A stretch of DNA of 64,000 nucleotides from Pseudomonadales bacterium (GCA_024234615.1 JACKNY010000001.1:1030334-1094333); one strand, 5' to 3'; counted from the stretch's first letter, positions 7,941 through 21,425 are shown. Notes: generated by a model from the letters alone, not told the origin. Numbers and translations: made by a program.

Positions 7941-8644
7941 GGTAAATTTCCCTGGTAATTCGTGGAGTTATCATATTGTTTAACCAAACGAGAAGGGCTA
8001 ACACCCAGAAAATATAAGAAGCGTAATTTCCACATGAGCAAAATGGTGCGCCAGATACCACGTTGTTCCCAGCGTCGACTTGAGGTCACTAAAGGTGAGC
8101 CAATACAAAGTGGGCGGCTTAGGCGTTTCAATCGTTTGCTCAACTCAACATCTTCCATCAAGGGAATCTGGGCATACCCACCAATAGTTTGAAATAACGC
8201 TCTGCGTACAAAAATTGCCTGATCACCAGTGGCAATCCCTGTCATTTTCGACCGCAGGTTCATTAAGTGAGCAACCAATCGCAAATGCGGGTGAGAACCA
8301 CTCAGCCGAACGTCGAAGCGCCCCCAGGCTTGCTTGGCAGGCATTATTTTATCCCGCCAAATCGATTCAATATTTTGGGGTAGAAGGGTGTCCGCGTGCA
8401 AAAACATCAGCCATTCACCCTGCGCGATTTGTGCTCCAGCGTTCATTTGTAGTGCACGTCCGGCTTTGGTTTGAATAATTCGATCCGTGAATGGTGCTGC
8501 TATCGCTATGGTTTGGTCTTTGCTGCCACCATCAATCAGAATGATTTCGCTATTGAGAGCCTCTGTACTTTGTCGCAGGCTAGCAAGCGTCTGTGCTAAT
8601 ACTGCCGCTTCATTAAGAGTGGGGATGATGAAGCTAATCTGCAT
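7937..8644 (-). CDS. Family-2 glycosyltransferase (TIGR04283-like partner of DUF2064 and ArsS)
   Basis: 235 aa. The N terminus is ISFIIPTLNEAAVL...IILIDGGSKDQT and a ...HADT... block is present. It lies between arsS and the DUF2064 gene. Confidence 0.7.
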   Translation of the reverse strand: MQISFIIPTLNEAAVLAQTLASLRQSTEALNSEIILIDGGSKDQTIAIAAPFTDRIIQTKAGRALQMNAGAQIAQGEWLMFLHADTLLPQNIESIWRDKIMPAKQAWGRFDVRLSGSHPHLRLVAHLMNLRSKMTGIATGDQAIFVRRALFQTIGGYAQIPLMEDVELSKRLKRLSRPLCIGSPLVTSSRRWEQRGIWRTILLMWKLRFLYFLGVSPSRLVKQYDNSTNYQGNLP

Positions 8645-8662
8645 AAGGTCGGCAATGGTGTC

Positions 8663-9625
8663 TCAGGAAAGTGCGCCGCCACAGCTGCTGCCCTGTCCGG
8701 CGGTACAGCCGTAACAATGATCGGCGACCGCGATGGCTGCTCCGCGGATATCTTTATTCATAAGATCTTGCAGGTGGATTTTGGTGCGATCTGACGCCAA
8801 CAGTGGCATATCCAACATTTGGTTAAAATCGCAGTCGTATACAAAACCTTGCCAATCCACGCTGATTAAGCTTCGACACATCACCGTTGGTAAATTAGCG
8901 GGTTGAAAATTATTTTTTAGCAATTGAATGTAACTATCGAATTGTCGTTTGGATATTAGTGTGCTGCCGAAACGACTGATGGGCATATTAGCCAGCGCGA
9001 ATAGTTGATTAAACTCAATACCATAATGCTCACGTAACTCTCTTTTGTAGTCCTGTTCCAAAACTTGCTGAGGTGGTGGCAAAAATGGCCCGGTCGGGTT
9101 ATAAACCAGATTGAGCACTAGACCAGAGTTGGGCATTCCGTAGCCGAGCTGGTTTAAGAGCTGTAGCGCGGCGATACTATCCTTAAAAACACCCTTGCCA
9201 CGCTGTTGATCCACGTTCTGTTCCGAATAGCAAGGTAACGAGGCCGTCACAATCACCTGCTGGTCAGCGAGAAACTGAGCGTAATCCTCGTAACCTGGTT
9301 CCAGCAATATGGTTGGGTTGCAGCGGTCCATTACCTGCGCATTTCTGGCCCGGGCTTGTGTCACCAGATATTTAAAGTGAGGGTTCATTTCCGGCGAGCC
9401 GCCAGTCAGATCCAATAACCGAATGTTGCGATGTTCGATAAAAGCCAACACCCTATCGATATTATCTCGATCCATCAATTCGGTACGTCGAGGACCAGCG
9501 TTCACATGGCAGTGCACACAACTCAGGTTGCAAAGATAACCGAGGTTGACTTGGAGGGTTTCCAGCTTTTTGCGCTGTAGTGGAGGGAATGTAGTTGTCG
9601 CTAAAAGCGGTCGAGTATCGAGCAT
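8663..9625 (-). CDS. arsS: Radical SAM / Cys-rich domain protein ArsS (arsenosugar-biosynthesis type, Cys form)
   Basis: 320 aa with LQVNLGYLCNLSCVHCHVNAGPRRTE (CxxxCxxC radical SAM cluster) and a C-terminal HCYGCTAGQGSSCGGAL Cys-rich tail characteristic of the family. Confidence 0.78.
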   Translation of the reverse strand: MLDTRPLLATTTFPPLQRKKLETLQVNLGYLCNLSCVHCHVNAGPRRTELMDRDNIDRVLAFIEHRNIRLLDLTGGSPEMNPHFKYLVTQARARNAQVMDRCNPTILLEPGYEDYAQFLADQQVIVTASLPCYSEQNVDQQRGKGVFKDSIAALQLLNQLGYGMPNSGLVLNLVYNPTGPFLPPPQQVLEQDYKRELREHYGIEFNQLFALANMPISRFGSTLISKRQFDSYIQLLKNNFQPANLPTVMCRSLISVDWQGFVYDCDFNQMLDMPLLASDRTKIHLQDLMNKDIRGAAIAVADHCYGCTAGQGSSCGGALS

Positions 9626-9747: not shown

Positions 9748-10638
9748 TTAATTGGCGGATTGCTGCAACGCCCTGATCCGATCATCCAGCGGTGGGTGTG
9801 ACATAAACAGGCGCATGAAGCCTTGCTTAATGCCGCCTCCCTTAATACCAAAGGCTACCAACGTATCCGCCATTTGGCTAGGGGCATCGTATTCTGATTT
9901 TAAGCGCGCCAAAGCACCGATCATGGCACCACGCCCAGCAAGCTTTGCACCCGCAGCATCGGCCCGGTATTCGCGCCAACGGGAGAACCACATCACAATC
10001 ATGGATGCTAATAAGCCCAGAACTAGCTCGGCAATGATGGTCGTAATGTAATAACCAATGCCGTGCCCACGTTCAGTTTTAAAGATGACACGATCGACGG
10101 TATGACCAATAATGCGTGAAAAAAACATCACAAAAGTGTTAACGACACCTTGAATTAAGGTTAGTGTGATCATGTCACCATTGGCGACATGGCCGATTTC
10201 GTGTGCCAATACAGCCCTGACCTCTTCTTTATCGAATCGGCTGAGGAGCCCGGTACTAACCGCGACTAGAGCACTGTTTCGATTCCAGCCGGTAGCAAAG
10301 GCATTAGATTGCTCCGATGGAAACACGCCTACTTCTGGCATGCCGATCCCGGATTGCTCCGCTAATCGCTTAACCTCGTTCACCAGCCAGCGCTCGGGTT
10401 CGTTAGCGGGCTGTTCGATAATTTTTACCCCCATCGAACGTTTGGCCATCCACTTGGATATAAAGAGTGAAATTAATGAGCCGCTAACACCAAATATCGC
10501 ACAGAATACCAACAGAGCCTGTAAATCAAGGTCAATACCGTTAGCTGCCATGATGGAGTTAAACCCCAGCAGACTTAAAGTAATATTGGCAACGAATAGA
10601 ATAGCCAAGTTGGTCGCGATGAATAGTAATATGCGCAT
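9748..10638 (-). CDS. htpX: M48 zinc metalloprotease HtpX
   Basis: 296 aa with the N terminus MRILLFIATNLAILF, the zincin motif HEIGHVANGD and the C-terminal SHPPLDDRIRAL. Confidence 0.92.
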   Translation of the reverse strand: MRILLFIATNLAILFVANITLSLLGFNSIMAANGIDLDLQALLVFCAIFGVSGSLISLFISKWMAKRSMGVKIIEQPANEPERWLVNEVKRLAEQSGIGMPEVGVFPSEQSNAFATGWNRNSALVAVSTGLLSRFDKEEVRAVLAHEIGHVANGDMITLTLIQGVVNTFVMFFSRIIGHTVDRVIFKTERGHGIGYYITTIIAELVLGLLASMIVMWFSRWREYRADAAGAKLAGRGAMIGALARLKSEYDAPSQMADTLVAFGIKGGGIKQGFMRLFMSHPPLDDRIRALQQSAN

Positions 10639-10810
10639 AACAGCCCTTTACTCCACAGATAAATGATCAAGCCCTTTGACACAATATGCGGCCAATTCTA
10701 TCCCTTTCAATTGCAGATAGCCTGTAATTACTTTTGTGGCGATAGGGTAACCCGTTGCGAGAGCTGTGCTCTCTTCCCAAATTAGGAAGAGAGTTACAAC
10801 GAGAGATATT

Positions 10811-12037
10811 TTAACGAACAGCGATTTTTCGCACTAACGGCCATTTATCAAAGAAAGTATTAAAAAATAGTAGCGTCATCAATAACGCAAATTGCCCTGC
10901 TAAAATGCCAAGAGGAGAAACGCCCATGCCAAGGTCATTCGAGCCATAAGGAATGAGGGTATAGGTTTTAATCCAGATCACACCATAAATGGTGCCTCCG
11001 ATAAACCAAATTGCAATACGGATCAGCACCCGCGCGGCCTGGTTGGTAATTAATTCGGAGCTAGGATAATCATCAAACAGGTGATGCCAAGCTAACATAA
11101 AGACGATCACCGATAACTCCAAAGACGACACCACCACATCTATAGGTGGTCCTGTTACCAGATTCATTGGTTCAATAATAGCGCGCACGACTGGCGGCAC
11201 CACAAAGCCTGCGGCAACCGCAATTACAAATCCGGCAATACCCATCCAGGGTTGCCTTTTCGCAAAGAAGCGCATTGGGTAAAGCTCTCCACCCTCCACT
11301 GGCATAATGGCGAAAATGACATAAGCCTGGCAGAAGGCGATGAAAGCTGGCCAATTACCAAAAGGTGGAGCAACTATTTCATGATGTCCTAGGCTAAGAT
11401 TCATCCAACTCGGCACGATCATCGCCATCCATACTATCCAAGTGACAGCGATACCCATCGCGAGCACACCATAACCATCCGTAGGGCTTTCTGCTTTCCC
11501 CGCAAAGGGCCATTTTAACAACAGCGAGACCAAGGGGATTTGCGCGATAATGACTGATAGCGCGTAGAAGTTAGAAGTCTCCCATCCTTCAATGGCCAAG
11601 TGAATCTCATCAACCGACTGAGGCGTGAACATGAGCGTCAAGCTAAATGGCTTCCACCAAAGACCCAGCAGGCTAATTAGTACTAAGAAAGCAACTACGC
11701 CCAAAAACCAAGCCAGTAGTGTGTACCAAATACCTGCCCAGGGTTGTTTGTCTGTGAAATAAGTTTTTCCGTAATTGTTCATCACCAGCGTCATCCAAAT
11801 CCAGGTATTAATTACCATCCAGAAAAAAGTCCCCTCGGCTACTACGCTCGTCAACTTGCTTGTTAAATGAGCATCGAGCAAAGTAAGCGTCGGTCCGGCA
11901 ATAGCTAAATACAACTTTTGCATTGCCAACGACCAAATTGGCCAAATCAAATTGGCGGCAACAAAGCTCAAAGCCAACGCCGTAAAACCGGTTGCAAGCT
12001 TGCCTTGGAAAACACGTTTCACATCGTAGTGCTCCAC
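10811..12037 (-). CDS. Polytopic inner-membrane protein of unknown function (Trp-rich, about 10-12 TM)
   Basis: 408 aa ORF with a GTG start preceded by AAAGGAGGTG. Hydrophobic segments run throughout. I recognise no family. Confidence 0.6.
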   Translation of the reverse strand: MEHYDVKRVFQGKLATGFTALALSFVAANLIWPIWSLAMQKLYLAIAGPTLTLLDAHLTSKLTSVVAEGTFFWMVINTWIWMTLVMNNYGKTYFTDKQPWAGIWYTLLAWFLGVVAFLVLISLLGLWWKPFSLTLMFTPQSVDEIHLAIEGWETSNFYALSVIIAQIPLVSLLLKWPFAGKAESPTDGYGVLAMGIAVTWIVWMAMIVPSWMNLSLGHHEIVAPPFGNWPAFIAFCQAYVIFAIMPVEGGELYPMRFFAKRQPWMGIAGFVIAVAAGFVVPPVVRAIIEPMNLVTGPPIDVVVSSLELSVIVFMLAWHHLFDDYPSSELITNQAARVLIRIAIWFIGGTIYGVIWIKTYTLIPYGSNDLGMGVSPLGILAGQFALLMTLLFFNTFFDKWPLVRKIAVR

Positions 12038-12370
12038 TAAACACCTCCTTTAATATTTTTATGATAGGCAGTTTATTCTTTTAAGGTAGGTCAGCACTGA
12101 ATCCCTCCGGGAGCCGCCTCCATGGCTTTTTATGACCAATACGCTGAAAAGGTAATAATGGTTTCTTGTTGGAGACAGCTGTTTAAGAGGATTGGATAAT
12201 ATAATGCATCTTGCTTGTTGTCTATATGCAAAATAATGCATTCAAGGTGAAATAAAATTAACCCGGATTATTGTGTCCGCAGTGGAAGGTTTTGGTCAGG
12301 GCGATAAATAGAAAATGAGGGTGGCGACAAGCGAAGCGAATCAGTAGAATAGCGCCTCATCTACCGCATC

Positions 12371-13594: not shown

Positions 13595-13626
13595 TGGTGC
13601 CGGAAGAGGCCGGGGCCGGATTTGAA
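13595..13626. repeat. Degenerate copy of the tRNA-Leu 3' end (candidate distal att site of the island)
   Basis: TGGTGCC-ggaagaggc-CGGGGCCGGA-TTTGAA here compares with TGGTGCC-CGGGGCCGGA-ATCGAA at 21339-21361. The 7-nt and 10-nt blocks are identical, the last 6 nt match 4/6, and this copy has a 9-nt insertion. Confidence 0.5.
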
Positions 13627-13866: not shown

Positions 13867-15069
13867 TTAGGACCTACTTTTTACAAATCGTCGAATTGAA
13901 CCACTTTGCTTTTCTTGAATGCGGTGCTGTGCCCAAGGGTGGATGCCCATTATTTCATCGTCTCGGCATATATTTCTATTTATGAGATAATTGACAGCAG
14001 GGTTTATCCGTCTGGGGCTCCAATCAAACTTTTCTGCAATTTCAGTTAGACTTGTTGGAAAACGTTCATCATTTAGAATAGCTGAGGCCATTCTTAGAGC
14101 GTCTTTGTCAGGCTCCCACCCCATAAATGCTTTATCAAACTCCACAAATAACTCATTTTCAGGGATAATACTGTAGTGCTCTTCTTTGAAAAATGGTCTC
14201 AATTCATAAAGCCCATCTTCTATGTCTTTTTGGGTTAGCCCTGTTTCTTGAACTAAATCATCCATCTCAAGCATTGGGTCATGACTGGTTCCTGTTTCTG
14301 ACTTTGAACAAAAAACGTTAGCAATAGCTGTTGCAGCCACACTAAAACCGGTATCTGGCAATTCTTCATCTATAGGTGCTTTCCCTAAGGTGGGCTTTTT
14401 TGAAATTCCATGAATATCGTTTATCAACTGAGATAGGTCGAGTTCTTCAGTGACCTCAGGACTAAAATGTCCCGATAACAGAGCTGGTAATTTTTCGTGA
14501 GAAAGATTAAAACGTAATGGAATAAATTTGCACTTTTTGTCAAGCATGCGCACTAAACCTGCATCCATTTCCTGTTTAACCCAAGGTTTCTGAATAGCTG
14601 TTGGCGATAACAAAACAATAAAATGCGTGCAAGTACCTAACCCGTCATCAATACGCTGACGAAGGCTATCACCGGAAGCAATTTCCCATTCAGCCCACCA
14701 CGTATCGATCCGGTTACTCATAAGTTCATTAGCAATTTTTCCAGCTAGATCATGATCCTCCCAACCAAAACTAAGGAATACTTTTGGTGACAATACTTTT
14801 CTCCTCTCAACAAAATTCACACTTTTAAGCTCTTCTTCAGGTATTTTACTGCGTACGTGCTGAATAAGCTCTTTTGAACCTTCAACTTTCACAGACAAAT
14901 TATTCAAGTCGTTTCCATAAACTACAACCGTTGGGAATTCTTCTGTTTTAGGATGACGAATAGACCGAAGGCGTTCCGCAAACTCAACCTTAGCTATTTG
15001 TGTAACTCTATCTATTATGCTTTTTTGAAAGTCGCCAGCGTTAAATTTCTTACCGTTAAAAGTCAACAT
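13867..15069 (-). CDS. TIR-domain protein (N-terminal unknown domain, TIR, then a C-terminal region with two winged-helix-like segments)
   Basis: 400 aa. Residues about 95-195 read KVFLSFGWEDHDLAGKIANELMSNRIDTWWAEWEIASGDSLRQRIDDGLGTCTHFIVLLSPTAIQKPWVKQEMDAG. These are the bacterial TIR blocks (FxSxxxxD, GDSL, vLLSp...S.WvxxE). The candidate catalytic Glu167 codon is at 14569-14571. Confidence 0.85.
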   Translation of the reverse strand: MLTFNGKKFNAGDFQKSIIDRVTQIAKVEFAERLRSIRHPKTEEFPTVVVYGNDLNNLSVKVEGSKELIQHVRSKIPEEELKSVNFVERRKVLSPKVFLSFGWEDHDLAGKIANELMSNRIDTWWAEWEIASGDSLRQRIDDGLGTCTHFIVLLSPTAIQKPWVKQEMDAGLVRMLDKKCKFIPLRFNLSHEKLPALLSGHFSPEVTEELDLSQLINDIHGISKKPTLGKAPIDEELPDTGFSVAATAIANVFCSKSETGTSHDPMLEMDDLVQETGLTQKDIEDGLYELRPFFKEEHYSIIPENELFVEFDKAFMGWEPDKDALRMASAILNDERFPTSLTEIAEKFDWSPRRINPAVNYLINRNICRDDEIMGIHPWAQHRIQEKQSGSIRRFVKSRS

Positions 15070-15336
15070 AACTCAGTAACCAGCTCCGTAAAATTACCTA
15101 TAAACCGAAAGAAACATGTACTGTTCCATTCACGTTTCTTAAAGAAATATGCCTATCATTTCTTGTTGTTAAAACCTTCTTGATATTCACAGGCTTGTCC
15201 ATGAATGTTCACAATTAACCGATAGCGCTATTTCACTTCACTAAAATCGATCATCCAGAAAGTAGCGAATGCGGTATATAAAACCTTAACAAAAGTCTTT
15301 TTTTGAATACTTCAGTTAACGGCGGGGAGCAGACAT

Positions 15337-16194
15337 TTAATTTTTACTCTGACCCCGAACGATTGACCCCGAACGATTTGACTTGTTAGGCATTTTCTTT
15401 TGTTGCTCTCTCTGTCGCTGCCTTTCTCTTTTAACATAGCTCGCATCAACTAATTCTTCATGATCCAGTTGTAGAGCACAATTCATCACTTCTGAGATCG
15501 AATTATCCGAAAGCTCAAAGTTTTCTGGAATTAAACCAAATTTACGTCCACTATTCTCCTGGAGTGCGGAAAACAGAGCCCGTAGAAAATCTATCTTAGA
15601 TGGCCTGCTCGAAGCAGTTGATGCTTCTGTAAGTGAATCGGTAGCGTAAATATCTGCACTTCCAGCATCCAGACCTACTTCTGCTACTACCTCCTCTATA
15701 CTAGGCCAGTACTTTAGATCAAATTGGTGTTTTATATGACTTAATGGCTTTTTGATGTAGCTACGGTACAAGAAATTATCTTTCGACGCGTTCTCTATAA
15801 CATTAATAATGCTATAGTGGGTGCCACTAGAAAAACCTGAATGATTATGGAGTTCATCACGCCTCTCTAATAGGCCGACTAGCTGTTGTGCTACTTTAGC
15901 AATTTGTCTGTTTACTTCAAATAGTTCTTTCCTTTCAGTTCTGTAAGTGGCTGCTTTTTTCGGATTCCAAAACGCTGCACAAGACAAAACTAACGATAGA
16001 AATACTTCAATTTGTTGCTCGTTAAGTGATTTGGACAATTCGGCATATACATATTTCATGTTTTCCTTGTTATTAAGCAGCCGATCGATGACGCCATTCT
16101 CACTAGGTAAAATGGAATGCGCGATATTATAAGCCATAGATTTGCGAAGGATTTCTTCACATTTTTCTGTTGCTGTGGTTTGGTGTTCAGTCAT
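15337..16194 (-). CDS. Hypothetical helical protein with an Arg/Gln/Lys-rich C-terminal tail (island cargo)
   Basis: A long ORF. The preferred start is the ATG at 16194 (MTEHQTT), preceded by AAGGAGA. The track ORF extends to 16293. The tail reads KRERQRQREQQKKMPNKSNRSGSIVRGQSKN. I recognise no family. Confidence 0.55.
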   Translation of the reverse strand: MTEHQTTATEKCEEILRKSMAYNIAHSILPSENGVIDRLLNNKENMKYVYAELSKSLNEQQIEVFLSLVLSCAAFWNPKKAATYRTERKELFEVNRQIAKVAQQLVGLLERRDELHNHSGFSSGTHYSIINVIENASKDNFLYRSYIKKPLSHIKHQFDLKYWPSIEEVVAEVGLDAGSADIYATDSLTEASTASSRPSKIDFLRALFSALQENSGRKFGLIPENFELSDNSISEVMNCALQLDHEELVDASYVKRERQRQREQQKKMPNKSNRSGSIVRGQSKN

Positions 16195-16369
16195 TGGTAT
16201 TGTTCTCCTTATCGATAAATACCTTTCACACCAACAATTATATTTTCCAGAAATAGCTCTGTCGGTAACTGAAACTAAATTATCTTTACGCAATTCAGGT
16301 ACTTGTCCCTAGAATACCTAACGAGCCGCTAAAGAGCCGTAGTGCAGCAGCTGCACTTTTTGCGGTTTG

Positions 16370-17410
16370 TTATGAACGTTCTTTGCATTCAATCTCCCAA
16401 AATAATGCTCCAACGTCTTTAGATAGTTTTTGAATAATATGCTGCATGACGAGTGAATCAATATTGGGGTAGATTTCTAACAATCCAATTGAAATTTGAG
16501 TTAGAGACAGGGCTGTCAGGTCGGCAGGGTCGGTCATTCCTGAATTGCTTGGGCCGACTAATAGAACCTCCTCCTCTGCTTCAACCAAGCCAAGCTTATT
16601 TTTAATTCCATGCACATTTGCATGAACATTTTGGCTCGGCCATTTATAATAAGGGCGCAAGTGATCAAGCTCGACAGCTTCTTCCAGGCAAGAAAAATTA
16701 GGTCTTTTGTTGTTCAATGCTTCTGCTGCCCACCCATAGCTCTCTTTAAAATCTTTTCCGTACTTATTAAGCGCCTCGTCACGTGCCAATTTGCACTCGC
16801 GCAGCTCTACTTCGGAAAACCTTTCAACATTTAATCTTGGCTCATATTTATTGTACTGGACCATAGCTTTATAAGATTCAATTACTTCATGCTCAAAATA
16901 CCGAATAGCAAGTTCATTCCCATGATCAATTAAAAATAAAGCAGTGACTACCACCTCGTGCAAAGCACGCCATCTCGCATGCGCTGCATCAGCAAAACCG
17001 CCTTTAAGAAGCCAGAGTATTTCCGAAGAGATATGACAAGCCCTGGCATGCAAGCGAACTACTAGATCGAACTGTATGTTCTGCTCTTTGACTGCAAGTT
17101 CTCTATTCGTGTTATTGAATTCACTACCTGCCTCGAGGCATACGGAAATCAATATTTCAATGGCATCAAAACCCTTCTTCCACCTTTCAATATTTCTATC
17201 TACGAAACCATCTGCGTCGTCACGGTTTAACTTTAGTGTCTCTTGAGCATTTTCTTGCAGTGAATCAACAATGCCGTCAGCTATTTCTGGAACAGTGTCG
17301 CGAATCACATCTGAAACAAGGGGATACAATTCCTTTTCTGACAAATCTTTCTTCGCATTCTTGAGTGCATCGTCTAATATCTTCTCAAATATGCTTTGGA
17401 GACTATCCAT
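16370..17410 (-). CDS. Hypothetical all-helical protein, reminiscent of DUF5677-type proteins (island cargo)
   Basis: 346 aa. The central block RLHARACHISSEILWLLKGGFADAAHARWRALHEVVVTALFL resembles what I recall of the DUF5677 core. This assignment is from memory only. Confidence 0.55.
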   Translation of the reverse strand: MDSLQSIFEKILDDALKNAKKDLSEKELYPLVSDVIRDTVPEIADGIVDSLQENAQETLKLNRDDADGFVDRNIERWKKGFDAIEILISVCLEAGSEFNNTNRELAVKEQNIQFDLVVRLHARACHISSEILWLLKGGFADAAHARWRALHEVVVTALFLIDHGNELAIRYFEHEVIESYKAMVQYNKYEPRLNVERFSEVELRECKLARDEALNKYGKDFKESYGWAAEALNNKRPNFSCLEEAVELDHLRPYYKWPSQNVHANVHGIKNKLGLVEAEEEVLLVGPSNSGMTDPADLTALSLTQISIGLLEIYPNIDSLVMQHIIQKLSKDVGALFWEIECKERS

Positions 17411-17473
17411 ACGTCAGCCTAGTTCACGCCGTAGCAAACGGCTGCGTTTTCGCGTGCGTATTTACCTGCATTG

Positions 17474-17842
17474 TTATGAGAAGTTAATAAGATCACCGTA
17501 ACCCCATATAATTGTGCCTATAGCTGCTGCTGTAAAAGATGTTAAAGATAAGGCTGTATGCAACTTGCCATACTTAATTCTCATTGGCCATAGATGCTCA
17601 TCCCATATGCCCGACATATAAATAAGCCCATGAATGGTGAATAGCATATATTCTGATAGGAGGGCAAGAAAGACCATGATAGAGCCACTACGTTGAAGCC
17701 ATGTTGCTATGGTTTCGTTAGCAGGCATTAAAATACCGATATAAGCAAGAGTAGGTATTGCCACTGCGCCCAAAAGAAGCAATCCACAAATTAGCAAAGT
17801 GGTTACAATTTTTCCTTCTTGTGTCGGAACTTCCGTACTCAT
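17474..17842 (-). CDS. Small membrane protein, about 3 TM helices (first gene of the island cargo)
   Basis: 122 aa with hydrophobic stretches IVTTLLICGLLLLGAVAIPTLAYIGILM, SIMVFLALLSEYMLFTIHGLIYM and ALSLTSFTAAAIGTIIWGYG. It is co-oriented with the three downstream cargo genes. Confidence 0.55.
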   Translation of the reverse strand: MSTEVPTQEGKIVTTLLICGLLLLGAVAIPTLAYIGILMPANETIATWLQRSGSIMVFLALLSEYMLFTIHGLIYMSGIWDEHLWPMRIKYGKLHTALSLTSFTAAAIGTIIWGYGDLINFS

Positions 17843-18073
17843 TGTTTAGTACTCATAAAACGTGATAGAACTGGCCCTTGCAGTCAAAAAGCAAAACTTA
17901 GTCTTTGTCTATAAGGTACGGGAGGAGGGGGTTTGGGAAACACTACCAGGTTACCTCCCTATATACCTCGATAATTGAGATCCTATAGTACAAGATCATT
18001 TTAGCATTGACCAACGTGATATGGTTTATAGGTGTTCTGCTACAAGTGTTTGTACGTGCTGTTGAAAAAAGCT

Positions 18074-18089
18074 GTCCACAAGTCCACAA
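18074..18089. repeat. Perfect tandem octamer GTCCACAA-GTCCACAA (with inverted partial copies at 18158-18165 and 18167-18174)
   Basis: Read directly: GTCCACAAGTCCACAA. The sequences TTGTGGAT and CTGTGGTC about 70 nt downstream are reverse-complement relatives, giving four CCACA(A/G) cores within about 100 nt. Confidence 0.6.
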
Positions 18090-18249
18090 CCCTTACCTTA
18101 TTGCGAAGTGAACCCCATTGCTCGCGCAGCCCGAACGATGATGTTTAGGTTACGTCGTTGTGGATCCTGTGGTCAGGTTTTCCGTTCTGAATGATCGCTT
18201 TAACTATATTTAATCCGCAAGGTGTCCGCTATTATTGGCTGAGACTCCG

Positions 18250-18965
18250 CTCTGCGCCATCGTCACTGCCGAGCGCAGCGGGGTAGTGACGATGGCCCCG
18301 TGCCAGAAACCACGACAGGTGCCGCTCGAATTTCCTAGTTACGGATAAGTTTTCTGTTCTTATACTTGGTGCTATCTATCGAATCTATCCGCACGCCACA
18401 GCGGAAATGTGGCAAGGGGCTCCCGCCCTTGCTTTGGCGAAACGGGAACGGCGTTATAGGGCATCATTGATGCATCAGCCGAAAGGCTGATTGCCCATAT
18501 TTCTCATCACCGTTTTAACGGTTTCTTTAACTCAGCGGGCCGTTGGTTCCGCATTATTTAAGAGGAGGTGATTACTTCACCATGACAGTGGACTCTTTAA
18601 TGAGTCAATTGGTTTGCATCCTACCGGCTCCAACAGGAGCACGGGGATGTCGCCTGAAATCAGGCATATTCAGATTGCAACGGGAGTCGTGTCCCGAGGC
18701 CATTCCGCGAAAGCGGGTCAGTAGGCTACGAGCCTGCGATTGGTCATAAACACTCACCAGAAAGCAACCACACGAGAAGATCTGAATCACCAATTGAAGC
18801 CGCTGTGCAGTAGTATCCACAGCGACAGTTACGACAGTCAAGCCAACCGGCTATCGCTACTGTATCCGCTTATTGATCCTGTAGGGAACGAACAATCAAA
18901 GCATGGATTTACTTTCGCCTGTTTTGTTGGGTAGCAAAAGTCATTCGAAACCGCTTCGGTCTGTG
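18250..18965 (+). ncRNA. Candidate structured non-coding RNA / long structured leader upstream of alpA (family not identified)
   Basis: No ORF of 80 aa or more occurs across about 1.15 kb (17843-19037), and the stretch is GC-rich relative to the cargo. Several perfect hairpins are present. 18256-18267/18285-18296 is a 12-bp stem. 18395-18413 pairs GCCACA with TGTGGC. 18412-18432 is a 7-bp stem. 18474-18491 pairs ATCAGCC with GGCTGAT around a GAAA loop. 18509-18522, 18652-18665 and 18681-18696 are further hairpins. 18705-18716 is CCGC-GAAA-GCGG, and 18950-18960 is another. The GAAA loops read as GNRA only on the + strand. Confidence 0.3.
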
Positions 18966-19037
18966 TAGGCTTTTGCCGTTGTTTTCTCCTTGTTATTGCC
19001 TAGCATAGAGACGCTAGACAAAAGCAAGGAGACGTAT

Positions 19038-19220
19038 ATGAGTTTCAGAATCTTAAGGTTAAAAGAGGTCCAGCAGGTGACAGGATTATCCCGTTCAACT
19101 ATTTATGCCGAAATCGCCAAAGGTAAATTTCCCAAGCAGGTGAAACTCACCGGTGCTCGCTCTGTCGGTTGGCCTGAAAGTGTTATTGTGCAGTGGGTTG
19201 AATCCCGGCGGCAGGTGTAA
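19038..19220 (+). CDS. alpA: AlpA-family (MerR-like HTH) prophage/island regulator-excisionase
   Basis: 60 aa: MSFRILRLKEVQQVTGLSRSTIYAEIAKGKFPKQVKLTGARSVGWPESVIVQWVESR, the canonical AlpA pattern. The ATG at 19038 is preceded by AAGGAG. Confidence 0.85.
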   Translation: MSFRILRLKEVQQVTGLSRSTIYAEIAKGKFPKQVKLTGARSVGWPESVIVQWVESRRQV

Positions 19221-19251
19221 GCACCTCCAACATTTGGCCTTTCGACCGGTT

Positions 19252-19539
19252 TTACTTTAATGCCTCCTCAATATCTTCACGGCTTATTATTCGCACAATT
19301 TCAGCACAAGCTTGGCTCTGTCGGTAATAGATCGAGTGCACGCCGTACACACTACGGCGGCATCCCTCCAAATATTGGTCAGCGAGGGGATACATAAAAG
19401 GGCTATTCCCTATTGCCTCGAATCGCTGCTCCATGCCTTCGGCGTAACATTCCGCTTGCTCATAGCCAAAGTTCTCTATTCCATATTGATAAAGTCTCGC
19501 ATAATCAGCTGCTGCTTTATTGGTCAGTTTATAGGTCAT
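19252..19539 (-). CDS. parE: ParE/RelE-family type II toxin
   Basis: 95 aa: MTYKLTNKAAADYARLYQYGIENFGYEQAECYAEGMEQRFEAI...IVRIISRE. The pattern is typical of ParE. It overlaps the upstream antitoxin gene by 4 nt. Confidence 0.85.
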   Translation of the reverse strand: MTYKLTNKAAADYARLYQYGIENFGYEQAECYAEGMEQRFEAIGNSPFMYPLADQYLEGCRRSVYGVHSIYYRQSQACAEIVRIISREDIEEALK

Positions 19540-19784
19540 TCACCTGTCCGCTTTCCGTCCCTGATATCCTGCCTGATCTGAGCAGGGGTTAACTCCGACA
19601 AACCGCTTTTGATACCTTCCTGCAGCAGGGCCCGGATCGCTTCTGCTTCCGAACTTTCTCTTCTCCTCGCTTGCCGTATCAAGTCGTTTACAACTTCGCT
19701 ATTGCTACCGTACTCCTTACTTTCTATCTGCGCTTTTAGCCAATCAGCATTGGGCTCGGTAATTGTGATGCTTTGTCTTGGCAT
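19536..19784 (-). CDS. parD: ParD-family (ribbon-helix-helix) type II antitoxin
   Basis: 82 aa: MPRQSITITEPNADWLKAQIESKEYGSNSEVVNDLIRQARRRE...ALLQEGIKSG. This is ParD/COG3609-like and is translationally coupled to parE. Confidence 0.85.
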   Translation of the reverse strand: MPRQSITITEPNADWLKAQIESKEYGSNSEVVNDLIRQARRRESSEAEAIRALLQEGIKSGLSELTPAQIRQDIRDGKRTGE

Positions 19785-19909
19785 GATATGACTCCAGTTA
19801 GTTGGTGTATAAATGTATCAATATTACACCATTTATGCACCATAAAAGCCACAATCGTTTTATCCCTTCATAATCAAAGAAAGCTCGATACAAACAAAGC
19901 ATGCAGCAA

Positions 19910-21139
19910 TCAAAGGTTATTAACCCTGGAAAAAAGCGGCACCACCTTATTGGTAACCCGCATTTCATCTAGATAATCGGCCCACCATTGCATCATCTTG
20001 TATCGTTCTTCCAGGTAACGAGCGTGGTGGGTATAGGCAGCTCTTACGCCGTTCCGCTCCTGGTGGGCCAGTTGGCGCTCGATAGCGTCCGGGTTAAAGC
20101 CAGATTCGTTCAGTATCGAAGAGGCGGTGGCTCTAAAGCCGTGGGGAACAGCTTTACTCTTGCCAGGATGTTTGCCGTCGTAGCCAAGCTTAAATATGGC
20201 CTGACGCATGGTGTTGTCGGACATGGGTTGGTCGCGGTAGCGCTCGGATGGAAAAATCAGTTCGTATTTACCGGTCATGCCCTGCAGTAGTTCGAGTAGA
20301 TCCAACGCCTGAGGGGCGAGGGGAACTAGGTGTTCGGTACTCATCTTCATACGGGCGGCGGGGATTCGCCATACTTTGTTTTCGAAGTCGAACTCGACCC
20401 AGCGTGCGCCGCGCAGCTCGCCGGAACGGACAAAGGTAAGCAATAGGAGTTTGATTGCTCGTTTCGTCAGCAAGCGGCCACCGTAGGTTTCCAGCTCCCT
20501 AAGAAATTGAGGAAGTTCCTCCCTGGGTAGGGAAGGGTGATGTTGCACTTTCCTTTGTCTAACAATGCCGTCCAGATCGCTAGCTGGGTTACGGGTGGCG
20601 ATGCCCGTTTGTATCCCAAATCGGCAAATAGCTTTAATGGCCTGCTTGACGCGATTAGCAACGTCGAGAGCATCTCGGGCTTCAATTTTTCGAATGGTTG
20701 CTATTACCTGCATGGGAGTAATTTCATCGATGGTCAGATATCCCAGATCAGCAAAGGCGTTGTCTTCAAGACGCTTGAGTACTCGGGCCGCGTGGGTAGG
20801 CGTCCAGGTAGCGCGGTAATGATCCCACCATTGGCGGGCGACTGCCTCAAAGTGGTACATTTTCTGCGCGCGCTTTTCCTCTTTGCGCACGGCGCTGGGG
20901 TCTTGATCGTTACTGATTTGAATTTTTGCTGAGCGAAGTTTTTCCCGTGCGTCCTTGAGGCTGACCTGGGGATAGATGCCCAGGGCGATGGTTTTGCGTT
21001 TGCCGCGAAAGCGGTAATCCATACGCCAGTACTTGTTGCCGTTCTTTTTGACCAGCAAATACATACCGCCGCCATCATACAATTTGTAATCTTTGTCGCG
21101 GGGTTTTGCATCCTTGATGTGGATATTCACCAGAGCCAT
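19910..21139 (-). CDS. int: P4-type tyrosine integrase (DUF4102 N-terminal arm-binding domain + phage integrase catalytic domain)
   Basis: 409 aa. The N terminus reads IKDAKPRDKDYKLYDGGGMYLLVKKNGNKYWRMDYRFRGKRKTIALGIYPQVSLKDAR. The C terminus has ...RSGELRGARW..., HGFRATASSIL and ...LAH...AYTH. It lies adjacent to, and co-oriented with, tRNA-Leu. Confidence 0.95.
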   Translation of the reverse strand: MALVNIHIKDAKPRDKDYKLYDGGGMYLLVKKNGNKYWRMDYRFRGKRKTIALGIYPQVSLKDAREKLRSAKIQISNDQDPSAVRKEEKRAQKMYHFEAVARQWWDHYRATWTPTHAARVLKRLEDNAFADLGYLTIDEITPMQVIATIRKIEARDALDVANRVKQAIKAICRFGIQTGIATRNPASDLDGIVRQRKVQHHPSLPREELPQFLRELETYGGRLLTKRAIKLLLLTFVRSGELRGARWVEFDFENKVWRIPAARMKMSTEHLVPLAPQALDLLELLQGMTGKYELIFPSERYRDQPMSDNTMRQAIFKLGYDGKHPGKSKAVPHGFRATASSILNESGFNPDAIERQLAHQERNGVRAAYTHHARYLEERYKMMQWWADYLDEMRVTNKVVPLFSRVNNL

Positions 21140-21338
21140 GTGACGTCACCTTTCCTTGAATTCCGTTGACGGTATATTCCTTAATTGAAACGAAATCACG
21201 TGTAAAGTACCGACAAATGGTTCGGCTGTCAATAAACGCTGTTGAACGTAATAGAAAGATAGGGTTGTCGTAACTTATTGTTTTTGTTTGTTTAATGCAG
21301 CTTATTGGACTTCTTCGGATTTTACCGGAAGATGTCAA

Positions 21339-21425
21339 TGGTGCCCGGGGCCGGAATCGAACCGGCACGATGTTGCCATCGAGGGATTTTAAGTCCCTTG
21401 CGTCTACCAATTTCGCCACCCGGGC
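21339..21425 (-). tRNA. leuZ: tRNA-Leu (anticodon TAA), integration target of the island
   Basis: The reverse complement is GCCCGGGTGGCGAAATTGGTAGACGCAAGGGACTTAAAATCCCTCGATGGCAACATCGTGCCGGTTCGATTCCGGCCCCGGGCACCA. It has a long variable arm, anticodon loop CTTAAAA and an encoded CCA. Confidence 0.9.

What the first reader, a model, noticed from the sequence alone, without database searches (positions are those of the whole stretch)
13867..17842. Four-gene AT-rich cargo (3-TM protein, two orphan helical proteins, TIR protein): candidate undescribed defence/abortive-infection locus
The whole cargo of the tRNA-Leu island is four co-oriented minus-strand genes. They are a 122-aa protein with about three TM helices (17842-17474), a 346-aa helical protein (17410-16370), a 286-318-aa helical protein with a strongly basic tail (16194/16293-15337) and a 400-aa TIR-domain protein (15069-13867). 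By eye they are much AT-richer than the surrounding core and than the int/alpA end of the island, which suggests recent foreign origin. TIR domains are the NAD-consuming or signal-generating modules of Thoeris, TIR-STING CBASS, Pycsar, SPARTA, some retrons and Avs-type systems. None of the hallmark partners of those systems is present anywhere in the island: no SIR2/SLOG or Macro ThsA, no CD-NTase or cyclase, no short pAgo/APAZ, no reverse transcriptase and no STAND NTPase. Small TM proteins paired with TIR genes have precedent in phage-satellite hotspots (I recall a 2TM-1TM-TIR type), but the two large helical proteins between them are not part of any system I can name. The intergenic gaps are 63 nt, 76-175 nt and 267 nt. 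The four genes could therefore be one operon or two to three stacked single-gene or two-gene systems.
Basis: partly seen in the sequence, partly recalled or inferred. Interest (0 to 1): 0.85.

Follow-up and report, generated by a model that had tools for sequence, protein, structure and literature searches.

The report
Four unrelated cargo genes, not one system
The four AT-rich genes are real and sit in a tRNA-Leu genomic island, but in other genomes each one travels alone, so they are a stack of independent accessory genes (one a probable NAD-cleaving TIR immunity protein) and not a new four-gene defence system.

Summary
Four co-oriented minus-strand ORFs lie at the stated coordinates. The block has 39.9% GC against 47.4 ± 1.1% for the flanks, and it sits inside an int/ParDE/AlpA island at tRNA-Leu.

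I call the genes A (small TM protein), B (DUF5677), C (orphan) and D (TIR).
- Each belongs to its own conserved family.
- I examined 80 genome loci with C homologues, 80 metagenome loci with D homologues, 37 loci with B homologues and 31 prophage loci with A homologues.
- Profile HMMs found none of the window's partner families next to another, apart from contigs with protein-identical copies of the genes.
- Even the nearest relatives lack the other three genes (B at 87% and 78% identity, C at 68%, D at 76% and 71%); the 71% C relative sits at a contig end with no downstream sequence.

What each gene is:
- **D** is a conserved 400-aa family: an N-terminal domain, an AbTir-like TIR with invariant Glu167, and a probable tandem winged-helix C-terminus. 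It occurs in defence islands and as transposon cargo.
- **B** occurs as a lone insert in prophages and has no detectable structural relative.
- **C** is carried mainly on integrative conjugative elements (ICEs) and conjugative plasmids.
- **A** is a small membrane protein found in prophages.

Only D has an inferable mechanism, and defence activity is untested for all four.

The parts
17474..17842 (-). Gene A: 122-aa small membrane protein. It belongs to an unnamed family of about 120 aa with the motifs WFQRSGS and GTxIWGYGD.
   Evidence: ORF. No Pfam, PADLOC, NCBIfam or PHROG hit. 257 representative clusters at E<=1e-3. Invariant W48, Q50, R51, S52, G53, G109, T110, W113, G114, G116, D117. 31 IMG/VR prophage loci with variable neighbours and no B, C or D.
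16370..17410 (-). Gene B: 346-aa all-helical DUF5677 protein (long form with invariant ARWRALHE, HARACH and WASQN[IV]H motifs).
   Evidence: PF18928 1.7e-31, 110 bits against a cutoff of 27.1. phrog_27456 matches full length at 1.9e-82. 794 clusters at E<=1e-5. AF2 model pLDDT 85.7. No structural match in PDB or BFVD. It occurs alone in defence-island-like contexts and as a lone insert in prophages.
15337..16194 (-). Gene C: 285-aa protein of an unnamed family of about 270 aa (motif FDLKYWPS, basic C-terminus).
   Evidence: 52 clusters and alignment A1. 158 matches in the species-level genome collection. 163 plasmid records, of which 120 are conjugative. No Pfam or PDB relative. Neighbours are variable; ParB_N is within about 7 kb in 16 of 80 loci, and DUF932, DUF736 and RadC each in 10-12.
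13867..15069 (-). Gene D: 400-aa TIR protein. It has an N-terminal alpha/beta domain (1-90), an AbTir-like TIR (96-222, Glu167), a linker, and a C-terminal region with two helix-helix-helix-strand-strand units (244-400).
   Evidence: Pfam TIR_2. 617 clusters, many full length at 45-76% identity. Alignment A3 has 58 invariant columns, including E167 and the RRFVKSRS tail. PDB profile hits AbTir, BtTir and PdTIR at 1e-19 to 1e-20. AF2 pLDDT 79 and Foldseek target TM about 0.7 to the same TIRs.
16237..16265 (-). Promoter-like site (CCGACA, 17-nt spacer, TATAAT) upstream of gene C. It suggests C has its own promoter.
   Evidence: Best-scoring minus-strand consensus match in the block, 10 of 12. 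AAGGAG lies before ATG 16194. This is a consensus match only.
15350..15377 (-). 14-nt tandem duplication inside the 3' end of gene C. It is read in two frames and lengthens the tail by a few residues.
   Evidence: (repeat family D13).
13596..13626 (.). Degenerate copy of the tRNA-Leu 3' end (TGGTGCC...CCGGGGCCGGATTTGAA). It is the probable distal att remnant and left island boundary.
   Evidence: (repeat families D1, D2).
18990..21425 (.). Island backbone: AlpA (18990-19220, +), ParE (19252-19539, -), ParD (19536-19784, -), tyrosine integrase (19910-21139, -) and tRNA-Leu(taa) (21339-21425, -).

Best explanation
The 4-kb block is the accessory cargo of a small integrase/AlpA island inserted at tRNA-Leu. 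It consists of four separately acquired, independently circulating single-gene modules, not one system.

**Gene D.** This is the only gene with an inferable mechanism.
- It is a member of a conserved 400-aa family whose central domain is an AbTir/BtTir/PdTIR-type TIR with the catalytic glutamate.
- Most likely it is a self-contained sensor-effector. The N-terminal domain and/or the C-terminal tandem winged-helix-like region hold the TIR inactive until an infection cue appears. The TIR domains then self-associate and cleave NAD+ (depletion and/or cyclic-ADPR-type products), which aborts the infection.
- Shown here: the domain, the invariant Glu, full-length conservation, the absence of any fixed partner, and the defence-island and transposon-cargo contexts.
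- Inferred: NADase activity, the trigger, and abortive infection.

**Gene B.** This long-form DUF5677 protein behaves as a stand-alone insert of lambdoid and other prophages (flanked by virion-morphogenesis and baseplate-V-like genes) and of defence-island-like regions. It is probably a single-gene exclusion or defence candidate, or another conflict gene, with a conserved polar site (H121, C125, R146, R148, H151, E152, R252, H263, S288, S290). Its chemistry is unknown.

**Gene C.** This is mainly an ICE and conjugative-plasmid gene. It is often near ParB-like, DUF932, DUF736 and RadC backbone genes, so an element-establishment or anti-defence role is at least as likely as defence.

**Gene A.** This is a small membrane protein of prophages with unknown function.

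In this island A and B are probably co-transcribed (63-nt gap, no terminator). C appears to have its own promoter.
For: **No conserved linkage**
- 80 genome loci with C homologues (40-71% identity; 71 have at least 1.5 kb upstream and 70 at least 1.8 kb downstream) contain no A or B. TIR-family hits occur in only 4 loci, all to other TIR proteins.
- 80 metagenome loci with D homologues (51 with at least 1.5 kb upstream) contain no A, B or C.
- 37 B loci and 31 A loci contain none of the others.
- No small TM ORF lies upstream of B in any other context.
- The nearest relatives lack the other genes: B at 87% and 78%, C at 68%, D at 76% and 71%.

**Neighbour censuses**
- The commonest Pfam family among 107 immediate neighbours of D has 4 members. 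The list mixes ThsB_TIR, AbiH, AbiEii, AbiJ and restriction enzymes with integrases, relaxases and transposases.
- Among 86 second and third neighbours of D, DUF5677 did not reach 2 members even with one known positive added.
- Among 124 neighbours of C, the commonest family also has 4 members.

**Gene D**
- TIR_2 at 6.9e-22. PDB profile hits to AbTir, BtTir and PdTIR at 1e-19 to 1e-20, with E167 aligned to the Glu of AbTir's WTNYELD segment.
- Foldseek target TM about 0.7.
- Contexts include cargo inside a type I-F CRISPR-associated Tn7-like transposon, a TIR-rich defence island, and a position next to ThsB_TIR+SLATT.

**Gene B**
- It lies in lambdoid prophages between the lambda-P replication gene and DinI. 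In other prophages it is transcribed opposite to the flanking virion-morphogenesis and baseplate-V-like genes.

**Gene C**
- ParB_N, DUF932, DUF736 and RadC neighbours are confirmed by Pfam. 120 of 163 plasmid records are conjugative.

**Composition and signals**
- GC 39.9% against 47.4%. A promoter-like site and Shine-Dalgarno sequence precede C.
Against: - The four genes are co-oriented, similarly AT-rich (39-41% GC each) and tightly packed. Protein-identical copies of the genes in the same order recur on three short contigs from other sequencing runs, only one of which spans all four. They therefore move as one unit at least in this lineage.
- Two domain-level recurrences exist. A 71%-identical D homologue is followed by a 229-aa gene and a very divergent 269-aa DUF5677 gene. 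One C homologue in Halomonas is followed, on the same strand after about 300 nt, by an unrelated 319-aa TIR_2 protein.
- The samples were the best 80 of 158 and of 192 matches. Many metagenome contigs are short.
- The B and A samples are dominated by prophages.
- No experiment supports defence for any of the four. The only DUF5677 ORF tested, from a Bacillota lactic acid bacterium, was not among the protective hits (PMC12632615).
- C was not modelled structurally.
Confidence: 0.78

Rival explanations
1. One four-gene defence or abortive-infection operon. The TM protein and the two helical proteins act as sensor, regulator or membrane effector for the TIR NADase.
For: The genes are co-oriented, compact and uniformly AT-rich. 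The same gene order with identical proteins is found on three other short contigs. No strong terminator was found between the genes.
Against: There is no co-occurrence of the window's families in about 230 homologue loci, even for relatives at 68-87% identity. Each family is individually conserved with its own variable contexts. C has its own promoter-like site and Shine-Dalgarno sequence. No PADLOC multigene model matches.
Confidence: 0.03
2. Lineage-specific two-gene modules: A+B (63-nt gap, probably co-transcribed) and/or C+D function together here, even though the pairing is not conserved. This would be modular sensor-effector shuffling at the level of domain classes (DUF5677 with TIR; C family with TIR).
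For: The A-B gap is 63 nt without a terminator. A D homologue has a divergent DUF5677 gene two genes downstream. A C homologue is directly followed by a different TIR_2 protein. TIR-family hits occur within 10 kb of C in 4 of 80 loci.
Against: These are single instances among about 80 loci each. DUF5677 was not recurrent among 193 near neighbours of D. B's 87% and 78% relatives have no TM gene upstream. Defence islands bring unrelated defence genes together by chance. The C-D gap is 267 nt.
Confidence: 0.1
3. Some or all of the genes are not anti-phage defence. C (and perhaps A or B) may serve mobile-element establishment, anti-defence or exclusion. D may be an AbTir/BtpA-like NADase used in other conflicts or in host interaction.
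For: The C family sits near ParB-like, DUF932, DUF736 and RadC genes in ICE backbones and on conjugative plasmids. D's TIR is closest to AbTir, BtpA/TcpB and PdTIR, which were deposited as virulence-type or generic bacterial TIR proteins. A DUF5677 ORF did not protect in the one published test.
Against: D's neighbours are dominated by defence and mobility genes. D has no signal peptide or secretion-associated neighbour that I noticed. B sits at classic accessory-gene positions in prophages, which usually carry exclusion or defence functions.
Confidence: 0.25

Closest known systems
AbTir / BtTir / PdTIR / BtpA-type bacterial TIR NADases (PDB 7UWG, 7UXU, 7UXR, 3H16, 4LZP)
   Same: D residues 96-225 match these TIR domains by profile (1e-19 to 1e-20) and by fold (target TM about 0.7). 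The Glu of their W..x.E.D segment aligns with the invariant E167.
   Different: Those matches cover the TIR domain only. D places the TIR in the middle of a 400-aa protein, with a conserved 90-aa alpha/beta N-domain and a 160-aa C-terminal region that looks like two winged helices. Neither flanking region matches any solved structure.
Single-gene TIR defence candidates in PADLOC-DB (PDC-S66, bSEFIR)
   Same: These are the best PADLOC hits (PDC-S66 1.3e-19, bSEFIR 5.3e-12). Like them, D has no fixed partner and lies in defence islands.
   Different: The PDC-S66 match covers only the TIR part (model positions 141-272 of 282). The bSEFIR match covers model positions 37-257 of 412. Pfam SEFIR matches 1 of 23 family members, at E=0.23. 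D is therefore not a full-length member of either.
   Same: All involve a TIR protein. Pfam ThsB_TIR is weakly matched (3.2e-4, at the cutoff). A small TM protein is present in the same island.
   Different: There is no ThsA (SIR2, Macro or SLOG) in the island. The TM gene A is two genes away from D, has no PADLOC hit, and is never found near D homologues.
Pfam DUF5677 (PF18928) / phrog_27456
   Same: B is a clear member: 110 bits against a cutoff of 27.1, and a full-length PHROG match at 1.9e-82.
   Different: The family has no assigned function. The one published functional test, of a distant Bacillota member, found no protection. B's long form has an extra 115-residue helical N-terminus and invariant motifs that the short DUF5677 protein of L235 lacks.
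Defence islands and prophage or integrative-island accessory-gene hotspots
   Same: The block is AT-rich foreign cargo in a tRNA-integrated int/AlpA island that also carries ParDE. The homologues sit in defence islands, prophage hotspots, ICEs and a CRISPR-associated Tn7-like transposon.
   Different: Nothing differs in kind. This is an ordinary example whose four genes happen to be uncharacterised.

Membership tests
Multigene defence system (any) | The component genes are conserved neighbours across divergent genomes. | tested here: not met
   None of the window's families co-occur in 80 C, 80 D, 37 B and 31 A loci by tblastn and family HMMs. The nearest relatives lack the other genes.
TIR domain (Pfam TIR_2, PF13676), NADase-competent type | TIR fold with a conserved catalytic glutamate. 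| tested here: met
   78.7 bits against a cutoff of 28. E167 is invariant in 23 sequences and aligned to the Glu of AbTir's WTNYELD segment. Fold match has target TM about 0.7. Enzymatic activity was not tested.
Thoeris | ThsB TIR gene adjacent to a ThsA effector (SIR2, Macro or SLOG). | tested here: not met
   No such domain occurs in any island ORF. PADLOC ThsB models match only at 5e-8 or weaker, over the TIR region.
bSEFIR (single-gene) | SEFIR-type domain and a full-length match to the family model. | tested here: not met
   The PADLOC bSEFIR match is partial (model positions 37-257 of 412, E=5.3e-12). Pfam SEFIR matches 1 of 23 family members, at E=0.23.
PADLOC PDC-S66 | Full-length match to the 282-position model. 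| tested here: not met
   Only model positions 141-272 (the TIR part) align to D residues 87-222.
Rst_2TM_1TM_TIR | TIR gene with adjacent 2TM and 1TM partner genes. | tested here: not met
   The only TM gene (A) is separated from D by B and C. A has no PADLOC hit and is absent from all 80 D loci.
CBASS / Pycsar / SPARTA / retron-TIR / Avs | CD-NTase or cyclase, short pAgo/APAZ, reverse transcriptase or STAND NTPase partner or fusion. | tested here: not met
   No such domains were found in the island's proteins. The NCBIfam retron-TIR match is to the TIR part only (52 bits against a cutoff of 600).
DUF5677 (PF18928) | Score above Pfam's gathering threshold. | tested here: met
   B scores 110 bits against 27.1. 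All 38 aligned homologues match.
HEPN ribonucleases (considered for B because of the invariant R146-x4-H151 motif) | HEPN four-helix fold or profile match with the Rx4-6H motif. | tested here: not met
   The motif is present in the long-form family. However, there is no HEPN Pfam hit even at E<=1 in 38 members, no PDB profile hit, and no Foldseek match below E=0.1 in PDB or BFVD. The short DUF5677 protein lacks the motif.
tRNA-integrated genomic island (P4-type integrase plus AlpA) | Tyrosine integrase next to a tRNA gene, AlpA regulator, direct repeat of the tRNA 3' end at the far boundary, and deviant composition. | tested here: met
   The distal repeat is degenerate: 7 plus 17 nt, with an 8-nt insertion and 2 mismatches.

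The most novel reading that the evidence does not exclude
The most novel reading still open is that two of the four genes found new single-gene immunity families. D would be a widespread, self-contained family (617 clusters at 90% identity) that combines an N-terminal domain, a TIR and tandem winged helices, senses a phage cue through its winged-helix region and depletes NAD+. B, the long-form DUF5677 protein carried by Klebsiella, Pectobacterium and Serratia prophages, would be a new single-gene exclusion protein with an unprecedented all-helical fold. A weaker version is that TIR and DUF5677 proteins, or C-family and TIR proteins, cooperate as a loose functional guild.
Probability: 0.3. Interest if true: 0.55.

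Novelty: new member of a known kind. Interest (0 to 1): 0.3.

Why it matters
- **It removes a false lead.** The locus is not an undescribed four-component TIR system. Effort spent reconstituting it as one would be wasted.
- **It leaves four candidates for single-gene testing.** Each gene belongs to a well-conserved, uncharacterised family associated with mobile elements, and each can be tested cheaply on its own.
  - The D family is a TIR architecture that PADLOC-DB v2 does not cover at full length. It is common in defence islands and is even carried as cargo of a CRISPR-associated transposon.
  - The long-form DUF5677 family sits at accessory-gene positions in prophages of clinically relevant Enterobacterales and has no detectable structural relative.
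  - If either protects against phages, it would add one more single-gene system to a long list. That would be useful but not surprising.

Tried and rejected
- **HEPN hypothesis for B.** It was prompted by the invariant RWRALHE motif. I rejected it because there was no HEPN profile hit, no PDB sequence hit, no Foldseek hit in PDB or BFVD, and the motif is absent from a short DUF5677 protein.
- **First genome scan with the 36-sequence C alignment.** It failed because no stretch was conserved enough. I repeated it with 13 sequences.
- **PDB profile search for C.** Nothing was found below E=0.06. Relaxed Pfam scans of 36 C members gave only scattered one-off hits.
- **D's C-terminal region.** Only weak, scattered HTH or winged-helix Pfam hits appeared. 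The 'tandem winged helix' label rests on the secondary-structure order in the AF2 model, not on a significant match.
- **Literature.** Two papers mention DUF5677 and only one reports a functional test, which was negative. Searches for PDC-S66, bSEFIR and TIR plus winged helix gave nothing relevant.
- **D-DUF5677 association suggested by L235/L236.** A Pfam census of 86 second and third neighbours of D, plus a positive control, showed no recurrence.
- **Rfam on the island.** Only tRNAs were found.
- **Not done.** PADLOC was not run on neighbours in bulk. There was no test for an empty tRNA-Leu site in relatives.

Full report
**1. Observation**

I call them:
- A: 17842-17474, 122 aa.
- B: 17410-16370, 346 aa.
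- C: 16194-15337, 285 aa.
- D: 15069-13867, 400 aa.

C starts at ATG 16194, not TTG 16293. All 35 aligned homologues begin there. The public gene call on an identical contig is 285 aa. An AAGGAG motif precedes that ATG.

The block is 39.9% GC. The 238 same-size windows outside the island average 47.4%, sd 1.1, minimum 45.4. The integrase end of the island is 46-52%.

The island itself is well supported.
- tRNA-Leu(taa) lies at 21339-21425.
- Next to it are a tyrosine integrase with an Arm-DNA-binding domain, a ParD/ParE pair and AlpA.
- A degenerate copy of the tRNA 3' end lies at about 13596-13626.

The source is a Pseudomonadales MAG (names attached to the identical proteins).

**2. What each protein is**

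*Gene D*
- It has a Pfam TIR_2 domain at residues 97-199, E=6.9e-22.
- It belongs to a family conserved along the whole 400 residues. There are 617 clusters at 90% identity, and many are full length at 45-76% identity.
- Alignment A3 has 58 invariant positions, including E167 and a C-terminal RRFVKSRS.
- A profile of the family hits the TIR domains of AbTir, BtTir, PdTIR and BtpA/TcpB at 1e-13 to 1e-20. E167 sits opposite the Glu of AbTir's WTNYELD segment. From my own knowledge, that residue is AbTir's catalytic Glu208.
- The AF2 model (pLDDT 79) matches the same TIRs with target TM about 0.7.
- Outside the TIR, the model shows a small alpha/beta N-domain (1-90) and, after a disordered linker, two helix-helix-helix-strand-strand units at 244-400. 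These look like winged helices. Only weak, scattered HTH Pfam hits support this.
- The PADLOC hits (PDC-S66, bSEFIR, ThsB) and the NCBIfam hit (retron-TIR) cover the TIR part only or are partial.

*Gene B*
- It is a clear DUF5677 member (110 bits; phrog_27456 full length at 1.9e-82).
- It comes from a large, highly conserved family with 794 clusters at E<=1e-5. Invariant motifs include HARACH, ARWRALHE, RPYYKW.SQN.H and G.SNSGM.DPA.
- Its AF2 model is confident (pLDDT 85.7) and all-helical.
- It has no significant match in PDB or BFVD and no PDB sequence relative.
- An initial HEPN idea, based on the Rx4H motif, found no support.

*Gene C*
- It belongs to an unnamed family of about 270 aa with the motif FDLKYWPS and a basic C-terminus. 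It has no Pfam or PDB relative.

*Gene A*
- It belongs to an unnamed family of about 120-aa membrane proteins, with 257 representative clusters. Invariant motifs are WFQRSGS and GTxIWGYGD.

**3. Are the four genes a system?**

*C loci*
- I examined 80 species-level genome loci with C homologues, the best of 158. They span Gamma-, Beta- and Alphaproteobacteria. Of these, 71 have at least 1.5 kb upstream and 70 have at least 1.8 kb downstream.
- None contains A or B.
- Four contain some TIR protein within 10 kb, and none of those belongs to the D family.

*D loci*
- I examined 80 metagenome loci with D homologues, the best of 192. Of these, 51 have at least 1.5 kb upstream.
- None contains A, B or C.

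*B loci*
- The set comprises 10 loci from look-ups and 27 IMG/VR prophage contigs.
- None contains A, C or D. No small TM ORF sits upstream of B in any of them.

*A loci*
- 31 prophage contigs contain none of the others.

*Nearest relatives.* These are the strongest test.
- B at 87% identity (Microbulbifer echini) and 78% lacks the other three genes.
- C at 68% lacks them. The 71% C relative (L004) is at a contig end, so its downstream side is unknown.
- D at 76% and 71% lacks A, C and the B family.

*Where the block does recur.* Protein-identical copies of the genes in the same order appear only on three short Logan contigs. Only one of them (L001) spans all four genes.

*Pfam censuses.*
- The commonest family among 107 immediate neighbours of D has 4 members.
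- The commonest family among 124 immediate neighbours of C has 4 members.

**4. Contexts, and what they suggest**

*D.* It lies among defence and mobility genes.
- Its immediate neighbours include ThsB_TIR, AbiH, AbiEii, AbiJ, type I/ISP/XhoI restriction genes, integrases, TrwC relaxases and TnsE.
- In Neiella marina it is cargo between the tnsA-tnsB-tniB genes and the tniQ-csy2-csy3-csy4 genes of a type I-F CRISPR-associated Tn7-like element.
- In Ensifer it sits in a TIR-rich island with ThsB_TIR-Nmad2 pairs, a patatin gene and a CAP12-type TIR.
- Its closest relative sits next to ThsB_TIR+SLATT.
- Together with the absence of a fixed partner, this is the pattern of a self-contained defence gene.

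*B.*
- In Klebsiella-type lambdoid prophages it sits between the lambda-P replication gene and DinI.
- In other prophages it is inserted between virion-morphogenesis and baseplate-V-like genes, often on the opposite strand to them.
- Its 78% and 87% relatives sit beside RES, RelA_SpoT, DUF4238, AAA_15/21 and Dnd genes.
- The only published functional test of a DUF5677 ORF used a Bacillota gene in E. faecalis against six phages. It was not among the five protective candidates (PMC12632615).

*C.*
- The ICE-type backbone genes ParB_N-like, DUF932, DUF736 and RadC lie within about 7 kb of C in 16, 10, 11 and 12 of the 80 loci respectively. C often lies between the DUF932 and RadC genes.
- Distant homologues are on 163 PLSDB plasmids, 120 of them conjugative. 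Neighbours there are also variable.
- A role in element establishment or anti-defence is therefore at least as plausible as defence.

**5. Local transcription**
- The A-B gap is 63 nt. It contains a short hairpin but no T-run on the coding strand, so co-transcription is likely.
- The B-C gap contains a 6-bp hairpin. It also holds the best minus-strand promoter-like match in the block (CCGACA, 17-nt spacer, TATAAT) and a strong Shine-Dalgarno sequence for C.
- The C-D gap is 267 nt and 36% GC.
- These are consensus matches only, not evidence of function.

**6. Residual signals in favour of some linkage**

Two exceptions need to be stated.
- In L235/L236, the 71% D homologue is followed by a 229-aa gene that overlaps a 269-aa protein. 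Pfam calls this protein DUF5677. It is so divergent from B that B's family HMM does not detect it at E<=10, and it lacks the RWRALHE motif.
- In Halomonas (L025), a C homologue is followed after about 300 nt, on the same strand, by an unrelated 319-aa protein with an N-terminal TIR_2 domain.

I tested the first exception. Among 86 second and third neighbours of D, plus that protein as a positive control, DUF5677 did not reach two members. I read both exceptions as chance co-location in defence and mobile regions, but I keep a 10% rival for loose pairings.

**7. Verdict**
- The genes, their composition and the island are real.
- The TIR call and Glu167 are correct.
- No known multi-gene TIR system fits.
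- The block is not a new four-gene system either. It is four independently mobile accessory genes stacked in one small island.
- D is a reasonable single-gene TIR NADase defence candidate of an architecture not covered at full length by PADLOC-DB v2.
- B is an uncharacterised accessory gene of prophages and genomic islands with no detectable structural relative.
- C is mainly an ICE and plasmid gene.
- A is a small membrane protein of prophages.
- This is an ordinary kind of locus made of uncharacterised parts, and interest is modest.

Noticed in passing
window 15350-15377: An exact 14-nt tandem duplication (TGACCCCGAACGAT twice on the + strand) lies in the last codons of gene C. It is read in two frames (NRSGS / IVRGQ) and lengthens the tail relative to homologues. 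It looks like a recent slippage event.
   Followed up: partly
window 17843-18989: A 1.15-kb stretch between gene A and alpA has no ORF longer than 78 aa and has backbone-like GC (48%). It contains a 22-nt inverted repeat at 18249-18303 (82% complementary, 11-nt loop). There is no Rfam match. It could be a decayed gene, a regulatory or origin region of the island, or an unannotated RNA.
   Followed up: no
L232 (Neiella marina NGNS01000023.1), D homologue at 8001-9203: A 66%-identical D homologue lies inside a type I-F CRISPR-associated Tn7-like transposon, between the tnsA-tnsB-tniB genes and the tniQ-csy2-csy3-csy4 genes. It starts immediately after the end of a DUF3644 gene, and VspR-like and helicase genes lie upstream.
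   Followed up: no
L233/L234 (Ensifer sp. Root127): A remarkably TIR-dense island. It holds two divergent ThsB_TIR+Nmad2 pairs, MazG_C, UDG, thymidylate kinase, an 868-aa patatin protein, the D homologue, another ThsB_TIR, a CAP12-type TIR and a second 396-aa TIR_2 protein.
   Followed up: no
L235 9382-10870 and L236: Downstream of a 71%-identical D homologue there is an overlapping gene pair: a 229-aa protein with no family, plus a 269-aa short-form DUF5677 protein. This may be a separate two-gene module.
   Followed up: partly
L025 (Halomonas sp. AOP13-D3-9) 9836-12085: A C homologue is followed, on the same strand after about 300 nt, by a 319-aa protein with an N-terminal TIR_2 domain. That protein is unrelated to D outside the TIR (27% identity over 96 aa).
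   Followed up: partly
L051, L062, L067, L070 (Hydrogenophaga/Acidovorax), C homologue plus next gene: In a clade of about 5 loci, the C homologue is followed, within about 30 nt where checked, by a conserved 663-aa protein with no Pfam domain. This is a lineage-specific partner not seen elsewhere.
   Followed up: no
L153, L156, L163, L170: The D homologue is preceded by a shorter (313-316 aa) ORF that clusters with the D family. This may be a tandem paralogue.
   Followed up: no
window 19252-19784: A ParE/ParD toxin-antitoxin pair (overlapping by 4 nt) lies between alpA and the integrase. It is probably the island's addiction module and is not part of the AT-rich block.
   Followed up: partly
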